Below are positions 8,677 to 64,000 of a DNA stretch of 64,000 nt, piece after piece. Both the position numbers and the translations under genes were made by a program. Positions within the stretch are counted from its first letter, which is position 1; the number at the start of each line of letters is the position of its first letter. This DNA comes from an uncultured Gammaproteobacteria bacterium. GTDB lineage: Bacteria; Patescibacteriota; Patescibacteriia; 2-01-FULL-39-33. Below the pieces are notes generated by a model. It ran no database searches and had not been told where the DNA came from. It was given only the letters and a program-made list of their open reading frames with translations. Where the stretch lies: assembly GCA_964536975.1 (NCBI GenBank), contig CAZHYS010000002.1, forward strand, positions 12,288 to 76,287, in the 5' to 3' direction.

Positions 8677-9076
8677 ATCCCGCCTCGGTCCTGGTTAGTT
8701 ATGGTTGTGTGCCGCCAACTCCCTTTCTTGAAGGTGACTTTGGAGCGGAATAGGAGTGGGAGGAGACACGTTGACCGAGGCGGGAAAGCAAAACTCCCGT
8801 TTTTCCCATCAGAAAGAAGTGAGCCATGGCCGCGGAGAGGTTTCTACTAGTACAGCCATCGCCCAAAAGGCAAGCGATCGCAGAACGCGCAGACAAGGAT
8901 GGGAAAGGGAGTAGTAAAGAACAGTTTATTGTTTGTAATGATAACACAATGCGTGGAAAAAGCAAATACTTTAACTTCTAATCGCGTATCTGCTTGTTGA
9001 TTACAGCTTTACAGATGGTTCGACTCCGCTCACCACAAGCTTTACAAACTTTATAGATTTTCGACTCCATGGGCTT

Positions 9077-10402: not shown

Positions 10403-10690
10403 AATAAATTTCAAATTTGAAATTTTAAATTTCAAAACAATGGTTCGGCTTCGCTCACCACAAGTTTTTAATTTTCAAATCCGCCGCCGCGGATTGTTAA
10501 ATTGTCTAATTGCTATATTGTTTTTGTCTCTATTATGGAGATAAAACCCGACAATTTTACAATTTAACAATGTAACAATTCTTTAATTTGACTTTTTGAC
10601 TTTATAGACTTTAAGAACTCCTGCCTACCGCCTGCCTGCCGGTAGGCAGGGCAGGCAGGTTCAACTTTACGGACTTTATAAACTAAACCA

Positions 10691-12202: not shown

Positions 12203-12324
12203 CGGGCAGGGATTAGTAATCAGCGATTAGCGTTTAGCCTTTAGCGATTTGCGCCCCAGGCGCATCCCCTCCATATAGACTTTACGAACTTTACTGACTT
12301 TATAGACTTTCGACTTTCCGGTTT

Positions 12325-18730: not shown

Positions 18731-18875
18731 AACGCCAAGAAAGTCAACCCCGAAAAAACCGGAATTTAATCCGGTTTTTTGTGGTAATAGGCCTAAATAT
18801 ACCCCTCCCTAACCCTCCCCTTCAAACAAGGGGAGGGAACGGCCAATTGTAAATTGGGTTGTTAATTTTTATAGT

Positions 18876-19169: not shown

Positions 19170-19349
19170 GGGAGTATGTTGATTAATTTCTAATTTTTAA
19201 TTTAAAATTTTAAAACAATTTTTAATGGTTCAGCTTCGTTCACCACAAGTTTTCGATTTAAAATTTACAATGAATTTTCAATTATCAATTTTTAAAATTA
19301 CTGATTACCGCCTTACAGACTTTTGACTTTATGGACTTTAGACTTTTGA

Positions 19350-21776
19350 CTACCTTACTTTTACATTATATTCCTTTTTTAGCTTGTCAACAACTTTATC
19401 GTGGACTTTTTGCGCCTCGGCGAGCTCCAAGGTTTTCTCTTCGTCGCGATAAACCACCCGAATCGCCAAAGCTTTTTTGCCTTCGGGAATGTCTTTGCCT
19501 CTAAAGACAGACAAAAACCTTGCCTCTCTGATGAGCGGATCAACACTCATGGCAGTCTCAACGACATTGCCGTACAACACCTCATCCCCGATCTCCATAG
19601 ACAAGTCCAATTCTATGCCGGGAAACTTCGGCAATGACCGGTAAGTCGGCGAGGGCTTGGCCAGTTTGGCCAGTTTTTCAAAATCAATATCAATTATGCC
19701 GACATCAGATTTAATACCAAATAGATGAAGTGCTTCGCGATCAACAATCCCGATCCGGCCAACACTCTCTTTTCCTTCGCTCGCCAAAATAGAAAAAACG
19801 CTGCCCGGTTGCCAGATCCGACTGCTCTCGCCATCAGCCGCCGCCAGAGAAAAATCCTTGATGTTTAATTTTTCCAACAGAACAGACAAGGCGCCCTTAG
19901 CCGCCAAAAATGCCTCCTCCCCTCCCCGGCCGGCAACAGCCAAACAGAGATTGGTAATTTCATCGGGCAGATCGTTTGGTTTATTCAAATACACCTTGCT
20001 CAATTCAAAAATGCTCATTTCCTTGTAACTGTTCTCATTGTCGGCAATCGCTTGCAAAATTCCGGGCACCAAAGACGTCCGCATATACTCAAAATCAACA
20101 TTGAGCGGATTGGATATTTTGACGTGGTCTTCCACTGACAAGCCGCAATTCTTGATTAATTTTTCCGAAATAAAGCTATAATTATAGTTTTCCGAAAAAC
20201 CCAAGCCGACGATGATGTCTTTGACCTTATCTTCCAGTTGAAAAGGAGAGACGGCGGCAACATCAACGGGAATTTCGCCAGCCGGCAATATCGCCGGCAG
20301 ATTGTGATAGCCGTAGACGCGAGCGATTTCTTCAATCAAATCATGCGGTCCCTCAATGTCACGATCGCGCCAATAAGGCACCTTCACTTTGATCTGTTTG
20401 TCCCCGGCCGCTCTAAATCCCAGATTATCCAAAATTTCTTTTATTCGCGCCGACTTTATTTCTACGCCCAATATTCGCCGAACATCTTCCAGCGCCAGTG
20501 TCAACTCTTTGGCTTTGAATTTGTAATCTTTTTCGTCAAAAATCTTGGACGCGACTTTCCCGCCCGCCAATTCCACTACTAGTTCCACCGCTCGCAATAA
20601 AGCAGGGGTGGTTCCCTCAGGATTAAGACCCTTTTCAAAAAGATTAGAGCTGTCTGAATGCAAATTCAGGACTCTGGCAGTCTTTCTAATGGAAACAGGA
20701 TCAAAGGTGGCCGCCTCCAAAACAATCGTTTTAGTGCCATCTGACACCGCGGATAGCTCTCCGCCCATGATACCGGCGACTGCCGCCGGATTCTTGCCAT
20801 CGGCAATAACCAGATTGCTACTGCCCAATTCATAAGTCTTTCCATCCAGCGCCAAAATTTTTTCACCCGATTTTGCAAGACGGACAATTATCTCCGCCTT
20901 ATTCTCCCTCCCATTTACAAGGGGAGGGACAGGGTGGGGTAATAATTTTTCATAATCAAAAACATGCATCGGCTGACCGAATTCCAACAGAATATAATTG
21001 GTGATATCTACCAGGTTATTAATCGGCCGCAAACCCGACGCCAATAGTCGCTGTTGCAGCCATAGCGGCGAAACATCCACTTTCACGCCGGTCATCACAA
21101 TCGCCTGATAGCGCGGGCAGAGTTTTGGTTCTTTGACTGTGACCTTCAGAGACGGGGCATGCCCGGTCTCTACGGAAGCAATTCTTAGATTCGGCTTTGG
21201 TTCGCGGTATAAAAACTTTTCGCCCATAATCGCCGCCGCCTCACGCGCCAACCCGATGACACTCATGGCATCCGGCCGATTGGAAGTAACCTCAATATCA
21301 AAAATATAATCCTCCACTGGCATCACTTTTTCAAACGGCAGACCGACTTTGAGGTAATCGGGCATAATATAAATACCGGTATGATCGTCGCCGACACCGA
21401 GCTCGCGCTGGCTGCACATCATCCCAAAGCTATCCACCCCGCGGAGTTTGGCTTCTTTCACTTCCATCTCCCCCACTCTGCCGCCGATTAACACCACCGG
21501 CACTTTCTGCCCGGCTTTGATATTCGGCGCGCCGCAAACTATCTGGAGCGGCTCTTTCTCGCCGATATCAACTTTGCAGACATGTAGCTTGTCGGCGTTC
21601 GGATGATTGTTTATTTCCAAAATCTCGCCCACAACCACCTTGGAAAATTTCGCTTCATTGTGATGAATAAAATCAACCGTCGGTCCGCTTTGCGACAGCG
21701 CTTTGGCAAAATCCGCGGCCGATTTTTTCGTCGCGATATGCTCTTTGAGCCAGTTGTAGGATATGTTGAGGTTCAT
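19350..21776 (-). CDS. pheT: Phenylalanyl-tRNA synthetase beta subunit
   Basis: 808 aa with a tRNA-binding N-domain HPNADKLHVCKVDIG. Confidence 0.9.
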   Translation of the reverse strand: MNLNISYNWLKEHIATKKSAADFAKALSQSGPTVDFIHHNEAKFSKVVVGEILEINNHPNADKLHVCKVDIGEKEPLQIVCGAPNIKAGQKVPVVLIGGRVGEMEVKEAKLRGVDSFGMMCSQRELGVGDDHTGIYIMPDYLKVGLPFEKVMPVEDYIFDIEVTSNRPDAMSVIGLAREAAAIMGEKFLYREPKPNLRIASVETGHAPSLKVTVKEPKLCPRYQAIVMTGVKVDVSPLWLQQRLLASGLRPINNLVDITNYILLEFGQPMHVFDYEKLLPHPVPPLVNGRENKAEIIVRLAKSGEKILALDGKTYELGSSNLVIADGKNPAAVAGIMGGELSAVSDGTKTIVLEAATFDPVSIRKTARVLNLHSDSSNLFEKGLNPEGTTPALLRAVELVVELAGGKVASKIFDEKDYKFKAKELTLALEDVRRILGVEIKSARIKEILDNLGFRAAGDKQIKVKVPYWRDRDIEGPHDLIEEIARVYGYHNLPAILPAGEIPVDVAAVSPFQLEDKVKDIIVGLGFSENYNYSFISEKLIKNCGLSVEDHVKISNPLNVDFEYMRTSLVPGILQAIADNENSYKEMSIFELSKVYLNKPNDLPDEITNLCLAVAGRGGEEAFLAAKGALSVLLEKLNIKDFSLAAADGESSRIWQPGSVFSILASEGKESVGRIGIVDREALHLFGIKSDVGIIDIDFEKLAKLAKPSPTYRSLPKFPGIELDLSMEIGDEVLYGNVVETAMSVDPLIREARFLSVFRGKDIPEGKKALAIRVVYRDEEKTLELAEAQKVHDKVVDKLKKEYNVKVR

Positions 21777-23441: not shown

Positions 23442-24183
23442 AAAAAAATAATTCTACTATTGATATTATACCACAAAAATTATCAGCAAAAAAATATCCG
23501 TAATTTGAAATCCCGTCCAGTCCCGAGAGATCGGGAGCGGGACGGGATCCGGAGAAAGTTGATCGCTCTGCGAAAACTTCACTTATAAAAAAGAAAAAAG
23601 ATTTCTTGATTGTGAATGTTGGAAGCAAAACGATATATTCAACTCCTCTCCAAAGATTATAACAATGAAAAAAAATAAAGACAATAAATATTTTTTGTCA
23701 AGAGGAAAAAAATAAAATATTGTGATCGGCAATCAGTAATAATTGTAGAGACGCGATTCATCGCGTCTGGAAGTAATTAGTAACGAGTAACCGGTAACGG
23801 AACTCGTAATAGTGTGTCATCCCGACTGAGGACGCCCCAAGCGGACGAGTGGAGCCTGCCTGCCGGCAGGCAGGAGTCCGTAAAGTCATAATGTCATAAA
23901 GTCCAAGGTCAATCACATTTGACTTTATAGACTTTATGGACTTTTGACTTTTAACCAAGCTGCTCAAACATAAAAGCGGCGCTGACAAGTCAGAACCGCT
24001 TTTATGTTTTTGAAATTTAACACTGCCATTTTGGCAGCTATGGGAAAGAAAAAAAATATTTGAAAGAGCCCTTTCCCGCTTAAACCGGCAATTCAAATTG
24101 CTGGCTTGAGCGGAATGAGGAGATAGATAGTCAAAGAGCGAATCTCTTTTTTCTCTATCTCCTCAAGTTGTTCGGAGGGGGTC

Positions 24184-25931: not shown

Positions 25932-26116
25932 AACTCAAAAAATCCCCTTAAACAAAAATCCACAATAAAACAGATAAAAATTAAAATAAATTTTCAATAA
26001 TTTAATTTTAAAATTACTAATTATAGACTTTACGAATGGTTCGGCTTCGCTCACCACAAGCTTTATGGACTTTTGACTTTACTGACTTTCGACTTTTAAC
26101 TGTTTAATCTTCCATG

Positions 26117-45888: not shown

Positions 45889-46041
45889 ACCGCATTGACT
45901 TTATAAATGGTTCGACTTCGCTCACCACAAGCTTTACGAACTTTATGACTTTTGACTTTATGAACTATCTCCATTCTACCACAAATTTTAAGATAAAAAA
46001 ACGCCCGCGCTTCTCTTCCGTGAGAAACGCGGGGTAATTGT

Positions 46042-53905: not shown

Positions 53906-54086
53906 AGTTTTGCTTAGTTTATTATTTAAATTTATTAACGACCTTTAAATTAGTCAGGAGTCTAAAGTCATAGAGTCTATAAAGTCAAAATGCAACTGAC
54001 TTTGGACTCCATGGCTTTCGACTTTATGGACTTTACAGACTTTTGACTTTATAGACTTTAGGCTTGTTTATATTATAACACACTTT

Positions 54087-60737: not shown

Positions 60738-61367
60738 TCATCTTATGTCCACTGCGCCCGAACGGAGCACTTCCGGCTCACTGGAAATTAGTGACGCCAA
60801 TGTTGACGGCGCCGATTCTTGCCGGCCAATGTCAACATAAAAATCAACGCTATTGCCAAAATAATCTTTAGCTTCTGTGGCAGTCATAGCTGGCGGCAAG
60901 CCCTCGGGATTGGCGCTTGGCGCGACCAGTGGTCCGGTCTGCCGGACAAGATCGCGGAGCTCATCATTGTCCGGCAGACGGAATGCCAGACTGTTTGTAC
61001 CGCGATGAAGATAGGCAAATTTTTCTTCCGCGCAAGCAAAAATAATGCTAATCTTTCCCGGCCAATATCGCTGACAAAAATTTTTCTGCTTATCTGACAA
61101 AACTATACCGAATAAATCCAAGCCGCCGATATCGGCAATCAAAATTATCAGCGGCTTGTCCGGCCGCCTTTTTCTGACTTGATAAATTCGCTCCACTGTA
61201 TCCGGATTTAACGCCCGGCCGACCAAGCCATAAATCGTATCCGTCGGCAACACACCGATGCCGCCGGATTTTAAAATGTTAATTGTTTTTTGAGTAAAAT
61301 TTTTCTTCATAAGCACGATTTTATTTATTCCTTCCTCTTCCCAAGTGAAGAAACGGAGAGGGGTCAT
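60738..61367 (-). CDS. tsaC: L-threonylcarbamoyladenylate synthase, TsaC/YrdC family
   Basis: VLPTDTIYGLVG...PLIIL. Confidence 0.8.
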   Translation of the reverse strand: MTPLRFFTWEEEGINKIVLMKKNFTQKTINILKSGGIGVLPTDTIYGLVGRALNPDTVERIYQVRKRRPDKPLIILIADIGGLDLFGIVLSDKQKNFCQRYWPGKISIIFACAEEKFAYLHRGTNSLAFRLPDNDELRDLVRQTGPLVAPSANPEGLPPAMTATEAKDYFGNSVDFYVDIGRQESAPSTLASLISSEPEVLRSGAVDIR

Positions 61368-61425
61368 GCCTTTTATTCCCTCCCCTTGTCTGAAGGGGAG
61401 GGATAGGGAGGGGTCTAAAACCCAA

Positions 61426-62124
61426 TTATTTATTAAAAAATTTACCCAACTTCTCCACTCTTATCGCGTCCTTCGCCTCAAACTCCCCCACTCTGCTTCG
61501 TTCCAAATCAGACAAATAACCGCCGACACCCAGCTCCTGGCCAATATCGCGAGCCAAAGCGCGAATGTATGTCCCCTTGCCACAAATGACTTTTATCCGC
61601 AAATCAGGATATTTATATTTTAAAATTTTTATTTCCCTGATTTCCACCGGTCGAGGCAAAAGTTCCACCTCCTTGCCGGCGCGAGCGGATTTATACGCTC
61701 GCCTCCCCTTCACTTTTATCGCGCTAAACTGCGGCGGAATCTGATTGATCTGCCCGACGAATTGTTTTATTATTTTTTCAATTTTAATTTTACTGACGAT
61801 TCGACTCCGCTCACCACAAGCTTTACGGACTTTTGACTTTATGGACTTTATAGACTTAATTCCTTCTTCATCATCAGTCGTACTCGTCATGCCCAATCTA
61901 ATGTCAGCAATGTATTCTTTTTCCTGGCCGACGATTTCCGACAGTTGCCTGGTTGCTTCGCGGCCGACGCCAATCACCAAAACGCCGCTGGCCAAAGGAT
62001 CCAGAGTGCCGGCATGACCGACTTTTTTGACTCCGGACAATTTTCTCACTCTGGCGACAATATCAAAAGAGGTCGGCCCCTTCGGCTTGTAAATACCAAA
62101 GATATTTTTAGTTTTGACATCCAT
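61426..62124 (-). CDS. truB: tRNA pseudouridine(55) synthase carrying an in-frame repeat insertion
   Basis: KPKGPTSFDIV...HAGTLDPLASGVL...TTDD. The start at 62124 (MDVKTK) is preferred over the upstream ATG at 62160 in the ORF track. Confidence 0.85.
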   Translation of the reverse strand: MDVKTKNIFGIYKPKGPTSFDIVARVRKLSGVKKVGHAGTLDPLASGVLVIGVGREATRQLSEIVGQEKEYIADIRLGMTSTTDDEEGIKSIKSIKSKVRKACGERSRIVSKIKIEKIIKQFVGQINQIPPQFSAIKVKGRRAYKSARAGKEVELLPRPVEIREIKILKYKYPDLRIKVICGKGTYIRALARDIGQELGVGGYLSDLERSRVGEFEAKDAIRVEKLGKFFNK

Positions 62125-62318
62125 ATTAAATTTGCTGCGCTCTAATATTCTTGCTGCCACCGCTCAGGGCAAGCTCCTTCGGCTTGTAAATACCAAAGAT
62201 ATTTTTAGTTTTGACATCCATATTAAATTTGCTGCGCTCTAATATTCTTGCTGCCACCGCTCAGGGCAAGCTCCTTCGGCTTGTAAATACCAAAGATATT
62301 TTTAGTTTCTTTCTCCAT
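62086..62318. repeat. 97-bp tandem direct repeat, two perfect units plus a diverged partial third
   Basis: A repeat marker recurs at 62087, 62184 and 62281, giving a period of 97. Each unit contains the truB start codon and its first 15 codons. Confidence 0.8.
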
Positions 62319-62393
62319 TGATTTATTCTAAACCATCTGATATAATTCCGACAAATAGTGCTATAAATCAAAGAACGGCGAAAGGAGGCAGAA

Positions 62394-62588
62394 ATGGATC
62401 GTTGCGTCGTTGAACTGGAAGTATGCAACTGTGATTGCCACAAGGGAATTCCGATGAATCACTTCGTGTCGTGCTGCGAAATTTGTCCTAGTTGTGGCCG
62501 GAACATCAAATCGGAGTGCTACCAGGCGCATCTTGCACGGTGCAACCCGGAAAAAGCATACGAAGCATACTTAGAATCATTCCAGTAA
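62394..62588 (+). CDS. Small Cys-rich metal-binding protein
   Basis: SD AAAGGAGG precedes it. The protein has CNCDCHKG...CCEICPSCGRN...C...C. Confidence 0.45.
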   Translation: MDRCVVELEVCNCDCHKGIPMNHFVSCCEICPSCGRNIKSECYQAHLARCNPEKAYEAYLESFQ

Positions 62589-62804: not shown

Positions 62805-63977
62805 TTATTTTTTTCTATCAAATTTCCTGCGCTTTTGCCGGCTGGCGCGATTGCCAAAACGATGCGCTTCATCCCGTACTTTTAGTAATTGCTTTCTTGA
62901 TGCTTCGGCGAGTTCCTTGATCGGCTTTTTCGTGTCAGACGGAAACACCAGTTTATCACCGCCGAATTTGGAAATCCCGACCAGCGGAATACTGACATTT
63001 CTCGCCCGAAAAATCTTAACCACATAATCCACCTGCGGCTTGCCGCCATCAATCATAATCAAATCCGGCCGTGGCCACTCGGTATGGCTAAGCCGCCGGA
63101 TTATCATCTCTCCCAAAGCCGCCAAGTCATCACCGGCTGGCGCGGTCTTTATCTTGAACAAGCGGTACTGGGATTTATCCGGCTCGCCGCCGGTGAGCAC
63201 TGCCATCGCGCCATAAGTCTCGCGACCGGACAAGTGGCTGATATCATACCCTTCTATCCGATTAACACCGCGAGTGGATGCCGCTTCGTCGGCAGTGATA
63301 AGAGTGACATCCTGCAAACGCGACAATGCCGCCGCCCGCTCGGGGTGGTCTTTTTTAAGTTTAGCGATAAGCCGCTTTTTCTTGCCAGCAAAAAGCAAGA
63401 TGAGATTTGAGATATTACGCTGATAATCTGCTCGGCTGATAGCTTCAACGCAAATTCCTGGACACAAGCCGACCTGATGATCAAAACATGGCCGTCCCTG
63501 GCCTGGCCGGCAAGTGCTATAGGGAAAAATCCGGCGCACCAGTCGAAGGGCGTTTTTGAGCATGGTGGCATTTTGATACGGACCGAAAATCCTCCCTCGG
63601 CCGGCGGGAAATTTGTTGAGTTCCCGCTCGCGGACGATAAGCGGCCGTGGATAATCATCATCCGTAAAAACGACATAGACAAACGACCGATCATCTTTGT
63701 CTTTGATATTGTATTTCGGCCAATGCTTTTTGATCAAATTCGCCTCCAAAATAACGCTGTCCAAAATCGTCTCCGTGATTTGGTATTTGATGTCAGCCGC
63801 TGTTCTCGTCATTTCCGCGATTCGCGGCTCAATGTCTTTGCGAAAATATTGAGCAACTCGCTTTTTCAAATTAGTCGCGCGGCCGATATACAATATTTCC
63901 TTTTTCGGCCCCAGCCAAAAATACACGCCGGGCGCGTCAGGAAATTTTTTGGTTTTAGCGATTAATTTTTCGTTCAT
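62805..63977 (-). CDS. UvrC-family excinuclease, short (Cho-like); lacks the C-terminal HhH region
   Basis: An N-terminal GIY-YIG domain (GVYFW...YIGRA), the UvrC Cys motif CFDHQVGLCPGIC, and an endonuclease V-like segment. Confidence 0.7.
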   Translation of the reverse strand: MNEKLIAKTKKFPDAPGVYFWLGPKKEILYIGRATNLKKRVAQYFRKDIEPRIAEMTRTAADIKYQITETILDSVILEANLIKKHWPKYNIKDKDDRSFVYVVFTDDDYPRPLIVRERELNKFPAGRGRIFGPYQNATMLKNALRLVRRIFPYSTCRPGQGRPCFDHQVGLCPGICVEAISRADYQRNISNLILLFAGKKKRLIAKLKKDHPERAAALSRLQDVTLITADEAASTRGVNRIEGYDISHLSGRETYGAMAVLTGGEPDKSQYRLFKIKTAPAGDDLAALGEMIIRRLSHTEWPRPDLIMIDGGKPQVDYVVKIFRARNVSIPLVGISKFGGDKLVFPSDTKKPIKELAEASRKQLLKVRDEAHRFGNRASRQKRRKFDRKK

Positions 63978-64000
63978 TTGTTTTGATCTGTAGAGACGCC

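What the first reader, a model, noticed from the sequence alone, without database searches (positions are those of the whole stretch)
62086..62318. Perfect 97-bp tandem duplication of the truB start region creates two 31-aa upstream ORFs
Two identical 97-bp units plus a diverged partial third lie immediately upstream of truB and overlap its start. Each unit contains ATG plus the first 15 truB codons (MDVKTKNIFGIYKPK). Because 97 = 96+1, the reading shifts to ELALSGGSKNIRAQQI and ends in TAA, one base before the next ATG (TAATATG). The arrangement gives uORF(62318-62223), uORF(62221-62126), then truB (62124). It could act as a coupled leader-peptide array or be a very recent slippage duplication. 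The perfect identity argues for a recent origin.
Basis: seen in the sequence. Interest (0 to 1): 0.6.

Follow-up and report, generated by a model that had tools for sequence, protein, structure and literature searches.

The report
Strain-variable 97-bp repeat at truB start
A candidate-phylum bacterium carries two perfect 97-bp repeat units inserted at the start of its tRNA-modification gene truB; an otherwise identical assembly lacks them, so this looks like a recent strain-level variant that leaves the gene readable, not a conserved regulatory leader.

Summary
The repeat is in the sequence as described. Period is 97, there are 2.4 copies at 100% identity, and it spans window 62079-62308. It is the only large tandem repeat in the 64 kb. 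It is not a duplication of the native truB start. On the gene strand it reads R-S-R-S-R. R is 36 bp, truB codons 5-16. S is 61 bp with no detectable source in any collection searched. An independent assembly (Logan, SRR12447083) is 100% identical on both flanks but lacks exactly the 194 bp. There truB starts MEKETKNIF at ATG 62318. Logan contigs from at least 7 other runs stop exactly at the first 31-mer that leaves the repeat, which fits S being present in those reads. Two relatives (65-70% identical TruB) have no repeat and no upstream ORF. The two 31-codon ORFs and the TAA-T-ATG junctions are real. There is no conservation, no attenuator structure and no Rfam match. Best reading: a recent, copy-number-variable insertion that is tolerated because each unit brings a stop codon and an in-frame ATG. 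The closest analogue is mycobacterial MIRU repeats. The origin of S is unresolved. Interest is low to moderate.

The parts
62079..62308 (-). Tandem array, period 97, 2.37 copies, 100% identical. Reads R-S-R-S-R on the truB strand.
62273..62308 (-). R copy 1 (36 bp, AAACTAAAAATATCTTTGGTATTTACAAGCCGAAGG; last base of truB codon 4 to first base of codon 16, TKNIFGIYKPK+G). Follows the native start ATGGAGAAAG.
62212..62272 (-). S copy 1 (61 bp, AGCTTGCC...TAATATGGATGTCA). Absent from the repeat-free allele. Carries TAA, one T, and an ATG in the same register as the native ATG.
62176..62211 (-). R copy 2
62115..62175 (-). S copy 2, identical to copy 1
62079..62114 (-). R copy 3, continuous with the rest of truB
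62223..62318 (-). Upstream ORF 1 (31 codons plus TAA). Starts at the native truB ATG (62318), runs through R into S and stops.
62126..62221 (-). Upstream ORF 2 (31 codons plus TAA). Starts at the ATG carried by S, one base after the stop of ORF 1.
61426..62124 (-). truB as readable in this allele (232 aa, MDVKTKNIF...). Pfam TruB_N 2.9e-48 and TruB_C_2. Identical to protein P0001, which has an NCBI source.
62325..62354 (-). Promoter-like site TTGTCG-18-TAGAAT. The -10 hexamer ends 6 nt before ATG 62318, and no Shine-Dalgarno lies in between. This suggests a leaderless or near-leaderless native truB mRNA (inference).
62158..62179 (-). AAGGAG created at the R-to-S junction (62179-62174), 13 nt before GTG 62160, which is in frame with truB. 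A possible alternative start giving a 12-residue N-terminal extension. The same motif sits at 62276-62271 with GTG 62257 (inference).
62816..62833 (-). 3' end of the window's own uvrC. It matches the 18 nt of S that end on the A of its ATG in 16 of 18 positions (AGCGCAGGAAATTTGATA vs AGCGCAGCAAATTTAATA). A weak lead on the origin of S.

Best explanation
This is a recent, strain-polymorphic tandem insertion of the VNTR type at the 5' end of truB in a Patescibacteria (CPR) genome.

The reference state, seen in an independent assembly, is promoter, ATG(62318) GAG AAA GAA, R, then the rest of truB (MEKETKNIFGIYKPKGPTSF...). The window allele carries two extra (S+R) units of 97 bp between R and the rest of the gene.

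Each unit adds 96+1 bases. Translation from the native ATG therefore runs out of frame into S and stops after 31 codons. Each S also carries TAA-T-ATG, with the ATG four codons before R, the same register as the native ATG. The truB reading frame is restored as MDVKTKNIF... for any copy number.

TruB is then most likely made in one of two ways:
- Serial termination-reinitiation at the two TAAuAUG junctions.
- Possibly initiation at GTG 62160, which lies 13 nt behind the junction-created AAGGAG.

The upstream ORFs are by-products that make the insertion tolerable. They are not an evolved leader. Once one R-S-R existed, expansion to two units by slippage or unequal recombination between the 36-bp R copies is straightforward.

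Shown here: the anatomy, the polymorphism, the absence from relatives, and the intact truB frame. Inferred: the reinitiation route, the leaderless native start, the mechanism of expansion, and that the repeat-free form is ancestral.
For: - Perfect array, unique in the window.
- Logan contig L001 (SRR12447083) is 100% identical to window 62514-62273 and 62114-61253 and lacks only the 194 bp. Its TruB (P0121) starts MEKETKNIFGIYKPKGPTSFD.
- Logan contigs L003 and L004 (SRR31200661; SRR11845624, the same contig in 6 samples) are 100% identical to the window. Both end at 62279, so their terminal 31-mer is 30 repeat bases plus the first unique base, 62309.
- Logan graphs use 31-mers, each present once per accession, and contigs of 150 bp or less are not reported (PMC12424806). 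A branch at exactly this node is what an S-to-R junction would produce. It also explains why the 121-nt S unitig is invisible.
- Relatives L006 (TruB 70% identical) and L007 (65%) have one truB start and no tandem repeat. They differ from R at many synonymous sites, so three identical R copies mean recent copying.
- The upstream ORFs and TAATATG junctions are confirmed. Short stop-start distances favour coupling, and short ORFs can deliver ribosomes to a downstream gene (PMC12548453).
- No promoter-like site inside S, no terminator-like site in the array, no stable fold, no Rfam hit.
Against: - The R-to-S junction and the S-R-S arrangement are seen only in the window record itself. No read data could be examined, so the copy number, or even the tandem arrangement, could be an assembly decision.
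- The branch in the Logan contigs proves a second continuation after the 31-mer 62278-62308. It does not prove that the continuation is S.
- The origin of S is unknown.
- Which allele is ancestral is inferred, not shown. The branch-containing runs (at least 7) outnumber the single run with the repeat-free allele.
- Reinitiation without a Shine-Dalgarno sequence in this organism is untested.
Confidence: 0.62

Rival explanations
1. Assembly artefact. The metagenome assembler walked a small cycle in its graph the wrong number of times, or joined reads from two co-occurring strains: one with L-R-truB, one with a different upstream region ending in S-R-truB. The true molecules would then carry zero or one unit.
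For: - The source is a metagenome-assembled contig. P0001 has an NCBI source and a 99,249-bp contig, and its relatives are all MAG proteins.
- A repeat-free allele exists.
- The R-to-S junction was not found in any other assembly.
- Perfect identity between units is what a cycle traversal produces.
Against: - S is not native sequence, so this is not a simple expansion of local sequence.
- An R-to-S link must exist in reads for any cycle to form. A plain two-strain mixture (L-R and S-R) gives no cycle.
- At any final k above 38, a two-unit output needs k-mers spanning S-R-S (reasoning from de Bruijn graph assembly, not tested).
- The branch at the exact repeat boundary in at least 7 independent runs shows the boundary is real in reads.
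- The negative look-ups are weak. Logan cannot report the 121-nt S unitig, and the word search did not even return P0001.
Confidence: 0.17
2. MIRU-like mobile mini-element. S, or S+R, is a short repeat that inserts at start codons and carries its own stop and start. The host gene stays translationally coupled, and copy number varies in tandem.
For: [quoted passage not shown]
- Tandem units and copy-number polymorphism.
- This genome does hold other dispersed short repeats, one of them in frame inside truB.
Against: - No second S-like sequence in the 64-kb window or in any public collection searched.
- The unit includes 36 bp of the host gene itself.
- Stop-start spacing is +1, not the -4 overlap described for MIRUs.
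- The rest of the genome could not be searched.
Confidence: 0.1
3. Evolved regulatory leader. The two upstream ORFs tune or sense something and control truB translation by coupling or attenuation.
For: - The TAA-T-ATG junctions are arranged as needed for coupling.
- The array appears to be present in several samples.
Against: - Absent from an allele with identical flanks and from relatives.
- No alternative hairpins or terminator.
- The peptide has no run of a regulatory amino acid (sequence).
- No Rfam family.
- Perfect unit identity argues for very recent origin rather than maintained function.
Confidence: 0.05
4. Scar of a recombination with foreign DNA. S is the uvrC-truB junction of a related lineage, brought in by recombination that was homologous on the truB side and illegitimate on the other side, and then duplicated. 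This rival concerns the origin of S and is compatible with the best explanation.
For: - The ATG in S sits at exactly the native register (ATG + 3 codons + R), and TAA-T-ATG looks like an operon junction.
- In relative L007 the uvrC stop lies 7 nt before the truB ATG.
- The 18 nt of S that end on the A of its ATG match the window's own uvrC 3' end in 16 of 18 positions. None of 2000 shuffles reached that score for that 131-nt target.
Against: - Window-wide, the same match has E = 2.5, and ten target/strand combinations were tried.
- The frame in which the match is read as uvrC has a TGA inside S.
- No donor sequence was found.
Confidence: 0.3

Closest known systems
MIRU-VNTR loci of mycobacteria (mycobacterial interspersed repetitive units)
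   Same: Units of tens of bp in tandem, with variable copy number between strains. They sit at a gene start, and the unit holds a short ORF whose stop is next to the start of the following ORF, so the downstream gene stays translationally coupled (PMC12548453). The 40-100 bp unit size is from my own knowledge of Supply et al. 1997 and was not re-read here.
   Different: MIRUs are a dispersed family with tens of loci per genome. S has no second copy in the 64 kb or in any collection searched. The unit here contains 36 bp of the host gene. The spacing is TAA-N-ATG (+1) rather than a 4-nt overlap. The phylum is different (Patescibacteria).
Ordinary tandem duplication by slippage or unequal crossing-over between short direct repeats
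   Same: Perfect head-to-tail units, 36-bp direct repeats that can drive expansion and deletion, and alleles with 0 and 2 units.
   Different: A plain duplication copies local sequence. Here 61 of the 97 bp are not present in the repeat-free allele, so an earlier event must have introduced S.
Upstream ORFs and translational coupling by termination-reinitiation in bacteria and archaea
   Same: Stop and start separated by one base and no Shine-Dalgarno sequence before the downstream ATG. Coupling is most efficient at very short distances (PMC12548453).
   Different: Known coupled pairs are conserved gene pairs or conserved leaders. This arrangement is polymorphic within one population and is not conserved.
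Integrative elements that carry a replacement gene end at their attachment site
   Same: Direct repeats of host-gene sequence flank the inserted DNA, and the insert supplies a substitute start (ATG GAT GTC AAA) so the gene stays intact.
   Different: The insert is only 61 bp, has no integrase or cargo, and is itself repeated in tandem.

Membership tests
Tandem repeat / VNTR polymorphism | Head-to-tail copies of one unit | tested here: met
   Period 97, 2.4 copies, 100% identity.
Tandem repeat / VNTR polymorphism | Copy number differs between otherwise identical genomes | tested here: met
   L001 has 0 extra units and the window has 2, with 100% identical flanks. Intermediate numbers were not observed.
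MIRU-like interspersed unit | Many dispersed copies in the same genome | tested here: inconclusive
   No other S copy in the 64-kb window. The rest of the genome is not available, and the public collections gave no hit.
MIRU-like interspersed unit | The unit ORF's stop abuts or overlaps the start of the next ORF, in the same orientation as the host gene | tested here: met
   TAA-T-ATG at 62225-62219 and 62128-62122. The spacing is +1, not the -4 given for MIRUs.
Leader-peptide attenuator / regulatory upstream ORF | Upstream ORF conserved in related genomes | tested here: not met
   Absent from L001, L006 and L007.
Leader-peptide attenuator / regulatory upstream ORF | Alternative terminator and antiterminator hairpins, or a known RNA family | tested here: not met
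   No terminator-like site in 62079-62318, fold z = -1.5, no Rfam match.
CRISPR array (36-bp repeats, 61-bp spacers) | Spacers differ from one another | tested here: not met
   The two 'spacers' are identical, and the repeat is truB coding sequence.
Integrated mobile element with attL/attR | Cargo with an integrase or other genes between the direct repeats | tested here: not met
   Only 61 bp lie between the R copies.
Assembly artefact | Junctions not supported by reads | not testable with these tools
   No read data are available. Indirect support for a real boundary comes from Logan contig ends at 62279.
TruB (tRNA pseudouridine-55 synthase), the host gene | TruB_N and TruB_C_2 domains over the full length | tested here: met
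   Pfam PF01509 at 2.9e-48 and PF16198 at 3e-08. Homologues named TruB in Patescibacteria.

The most novel reading that the evidence does not exclude
The (S+R) unit is a start-codon-associated mini-repeat of candidate-phylum bacteria, analogous to MIRUs. Its copy number sets TruB output, because each added unit inserts one more Shine-Dalgarno-less termination-reinitiation step on a leaderless mRNA. That would make it a heritable, reversible expression rheostat in a genome with few regulators.
Probability: 0.07. Interest if true: 0.55.

Novelty: new member of a known kind. Interest (0 to 1): 0.25.

Why it matters
The main value is as a caution and a small natural experiment. A gene start in a metagenome-assembled genome can differ between strains by a perfect repeat, and that changes the annotated N-terminus (MDVK... 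versus MEKE...). The case shows how an insertion inside the first codons of a gene can be tolerated when it carries a stop codon and an in-frame ATG. If copy number proved to vary widely and to affect TruB levels, it would be an example of repeat-based expression tuning in an uncultivated, regulator-poor lineage. Nothing found here requires that.

Tried and rejected
**Source of S**
- An exact 39-mer was absent from genome contigs and metagenome contigs.
- An exact 30-mer was absent from viral contigs.
- blastn against phages, plasmids and E. coli genomes gave only chance hits or none.
- No second copy in the window.

**Finding the organism in the large DNA collections**
- A 30-mer from the junction of the native upstream flank with R gave no hit in either collection.
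- A 25-mer from R gave no hit in viral contigs.
- The organism is therefore reachable only through the exact-protein index.

**Independent copies of the S-containing allele by exact protein look-up**
- Not on record: the 232-aa and 244-aa TruB forms, upstream ORF 1, and partial TruB products expected from contigs starting at either side of R.
- These negatives are weak. Logan omits contigs of 150 bp or less and cannot hold repeated 31-mers.

**Word-based protein search with the 43-aa S peptide**
- It returned nothing.
- It did not return P0001 either, although P0001 shares 15 residues with the query. I treat it as uninformative.

**RNA element**
- No Rfam hit and no exceptional fold.

**CRISPR-like reading and integrated-element reading**
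- Both rejected on anatomy: identical 'spacers', and a 61-bp insert.

**S as a diverged copy of the neighbouring upstream flank or of the truB sequence downstream of R**
- Alignment scores were at shuffle level.

**Sample origin**
- A literature search on the run and sample accessions found nothing.

Full report
**1.

On the minus strand the region reads:
- upstream flank (L), then ATGGAGAAAG;
- R (36 bp, AAACTAAAAATATCTTTGGTATTTACAAGCCGAAGG);
- S (61 bp, AGCTTGCCCTGAGCGGTGGCAGCAAGAATATTAGAGCGCAGCAAATTTAATATGGATGTCA);
- R, S, R;
- GGCCGACC... and the rest of truB (T).

Tandem Repeats Finder gives period 97, 2.4 copies, 100% identity, at 62079-62308. No other array in the 64 kb has a period above 21. 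Exact searches find three R cores and two S copies, and none in shuffled sequence.

The exception is that the first ORF begins MEKETKN, not MDVKTKN.

The gene is TruB: Pfam TruB_N at 2.9e-48 plus TruB_C_2. Its relatives are Patescibacteria TruB proteins, the nearest 70% identical.

**2. It is an insertion polymorphism, not a duplication of the native start**

The 90%-identity cluster of this TruB has three members. One of them, P0121, comes from a Logan assembly of run SRR12447083 and starts MEKETKNIFGIYKPKGPTSFD.

Its contig, L001 (1068 bp), is 100% identical to window 62514-62273 and 62114-61253. It lacks exactly the 194 bp between them.

An allele therefore exists in which the ATG at 62318 is the truB start and R occurs once. 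The 61 bp of S are not in that allele.

**3. Indirect evidence that the repeat boundary exists in other read sets**

The small Cys-rich gene next to truB is found on Logan contigs L003 (SRR31200661) and L004 (SRR11845624, the same contig in 6 samples). Both are 100% identical to the window and both end at 62279. Their first 30 bases also match the other two repeat copies, and base 31 is the first unique base, 62309.

Logan graphs are built so that every 31-mer occurs once per accession, and contigs of 150 bp or less are not reported (PMC12424806). A contig end at exactly this 31-mer means the preceding 31-mer (62278-62308) has two continuations in those runs. An S-to-R junction next to an L-to-R junction would give exactly this.

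The S unitig would be 30+61+30 = 121 nt and so would go unreported. That explains why S could not be found through the protein index.

This evidence does not prove that the second continuation is S. The R-to-S junction is seen only in the window record. L001 passes through R unbranched, so in that run the insertion is absent or rare.

**4. Relatives have no such arrangement**

- L007 (TruB 65% identical) keeps the order uvrC, truB, response regulator, pilB-like ATPase. The uvrC stop lies 7 nt before the truB ATG, and there is no tandem repeat.
- L006 (70% identical) has a single start and no long-period repeat.
- Both differ from R at many synonymous positions. Three identical 36-bp copies therefore mean recent copying, not conservation.

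**5. What S is remains open**

No match was found in the species-representative genomes, the JGI metagenome contigs, the viral contigs, phages, plasmids, E. coli genomes or the rest of the window. Composition is unremarkable.

Two features suggest that S is a truB upstream junction from a related lineage rather than random filler:
- Its ATG lies at exactly the native register (ATG + 3 codons + R) and is preceded by TAA-T, a typical operon junction.
- The 18 nt that end on the A of its ATG match the 3' end of the window's own uvrC (62833-62816) in 16 of 18 positions. None of 2000 shuffles reached that score for that target.

The second point is weak. Window-wide the core of that match has E = 2.5, and ten targets were tried. 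I report it as a lead only.

**6. How it most likely works**

A promoter-like site (TTGTCG-18-TAGAAT) ends 6 nt before ATG 62318, and no Shine-Dalgarno sequence lies between them. Neighbouring genes do have clear AGGAGG-type sites. The native truB mRNA is therefore plausibly leaderless or nearly so (inference).

In the window allele, ribosomes starting at 62318 stop after 31 codons at TAA 62225-62223. The next ATG is one base away, and the same happens once more before truB.

Short stop-start distances favour termination-reinitiation, and short ORFs can serve only to deliver ribosomes (PMC12548453). TruB is therefore probably still made, as MDVKTKNIF..., perhaps at a reduced level.

A second possible route is the AAGGAG created at each R-to-S junction, 13 nt before an in-frame GTG (62160).

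Each unit resets the frame, so any copy number leaves truB readable. This is the property expected of a repeat that survives in such a position.

There is no evidence of attenuation:
- no terminator-like site in the array;
- fold z = -1.5;
- no Rfam family;
- no regulatory codon run in the peptide.

**7. Comparison with known systems**

The nearest analogue is the mycobacterial MIRU-VNTR. It is described as inserting at start codons with an internal ORF coupled to the host gene, so that expression is little disturbed.

The design and the copy-number variation are shared. The defining dispersed-family character could not be shown, because no second S exists in the 64 kb and the genome is unavailable. 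In addition, the unit here includes host coding sequence.

I therefore file it as a tandem-repeat structural variant that works like a MIRU insertion, not as a member of that family.

**8. Verdict**

| Reading | Probability |
|---|---|
| Real feature of the record, most likely real in the population; recent and polymorphic; upstream ORFs incidental | about 0.6 |
| Assembly artefact, cannot be excluded without reads | about 0.17 |
| MIRU-like mobile mini-element | about 0.1 |
| Evolved regulatory leader | about 0.05 |

Interest is low to moderate (0.25).

Noticed in passing
window 61800-61857 (inside truB); also about 2679-2713, 9008-9052, 26040-26089, 45911-45961: A dispersed repeat: 9-mer units of the type [A/T]AAAGTC, followed by the core GTAAAGCTTGTGGTGAGCG(G/A)AG(T/C)CGAACC. 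It occurs in several intergenic spacers. It also occurs once in frame inside truB, where it codes SIKSIKSKVRKACGERSRIV in a loop that carries different odd inserts in relatives (P0003, P0005, P0009)..
   Followed up: partly
window 10594-10613, 12278-12310, 19313-19340, 23918-23951, 54015-54060: Short arrays of the same 9-mer (GACTTTATA / GACTTTTGA on the + strand) in many intergenic regions. GACTTTA occurs 30 times on the + strand against 8 for its complement, so the arrays are co-oriented with the mostly minus-strand genes. Function unknown.
   Followed up: partly
window 61376-61417; also 18798-18839 (opposite strand) and 20896-20940: A G+C-rich hairpin repeat (ccctcccc...ggggaggg) in the truB-tsaC spacer recurs at two other places in the window at about 80-93% identity. 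It may be a shared terminator-type element.
   Followed up: no
window 62394-62588 (+): A 64-aa Cys-rich ORF with a strong AGGAGG site and an extended -10 promoter-like site (62318-62346). It has no Pfam match. Exact copies occur in at least 7 Logan runs. It sits between uvrC and truB, which are directly adjacent in relative L007. Relative L006 has a different 57-aa ORF, Cys-rich by my reading of the DNA, at the same place.
   Followed up: partly
window 60738-62124; proteins P0010-P0013, P0020, P0025, P0037: Several relatives encode one protein of about 400 aa with TruB and Sua5/YrdC domains fused (PF01509 + PF01300). Here truB and the Sua5/YrdC-family gene are separate neighbours with a 58-bp spacer.
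   Followed up: no
window 62805-64000 (-), L007 193-1389: The UvrC homologue is short: about 398-421 aa with GIY-YIG, UvrC_M and RNase H-like domains. By my recollection typical UvrC is about 600 aa, and the missing part may be the C-terminal helix-hairpin-helix region. This was not tested.
   Followed up: no
L001 ends (window 62514 and 61253), L005 start (61904), L002 start (61783): Independent assemblies of this population break at different points in and around truB. This suggests further strain-level variants or shared repeat k-mers near the locus.
   Followed up: no
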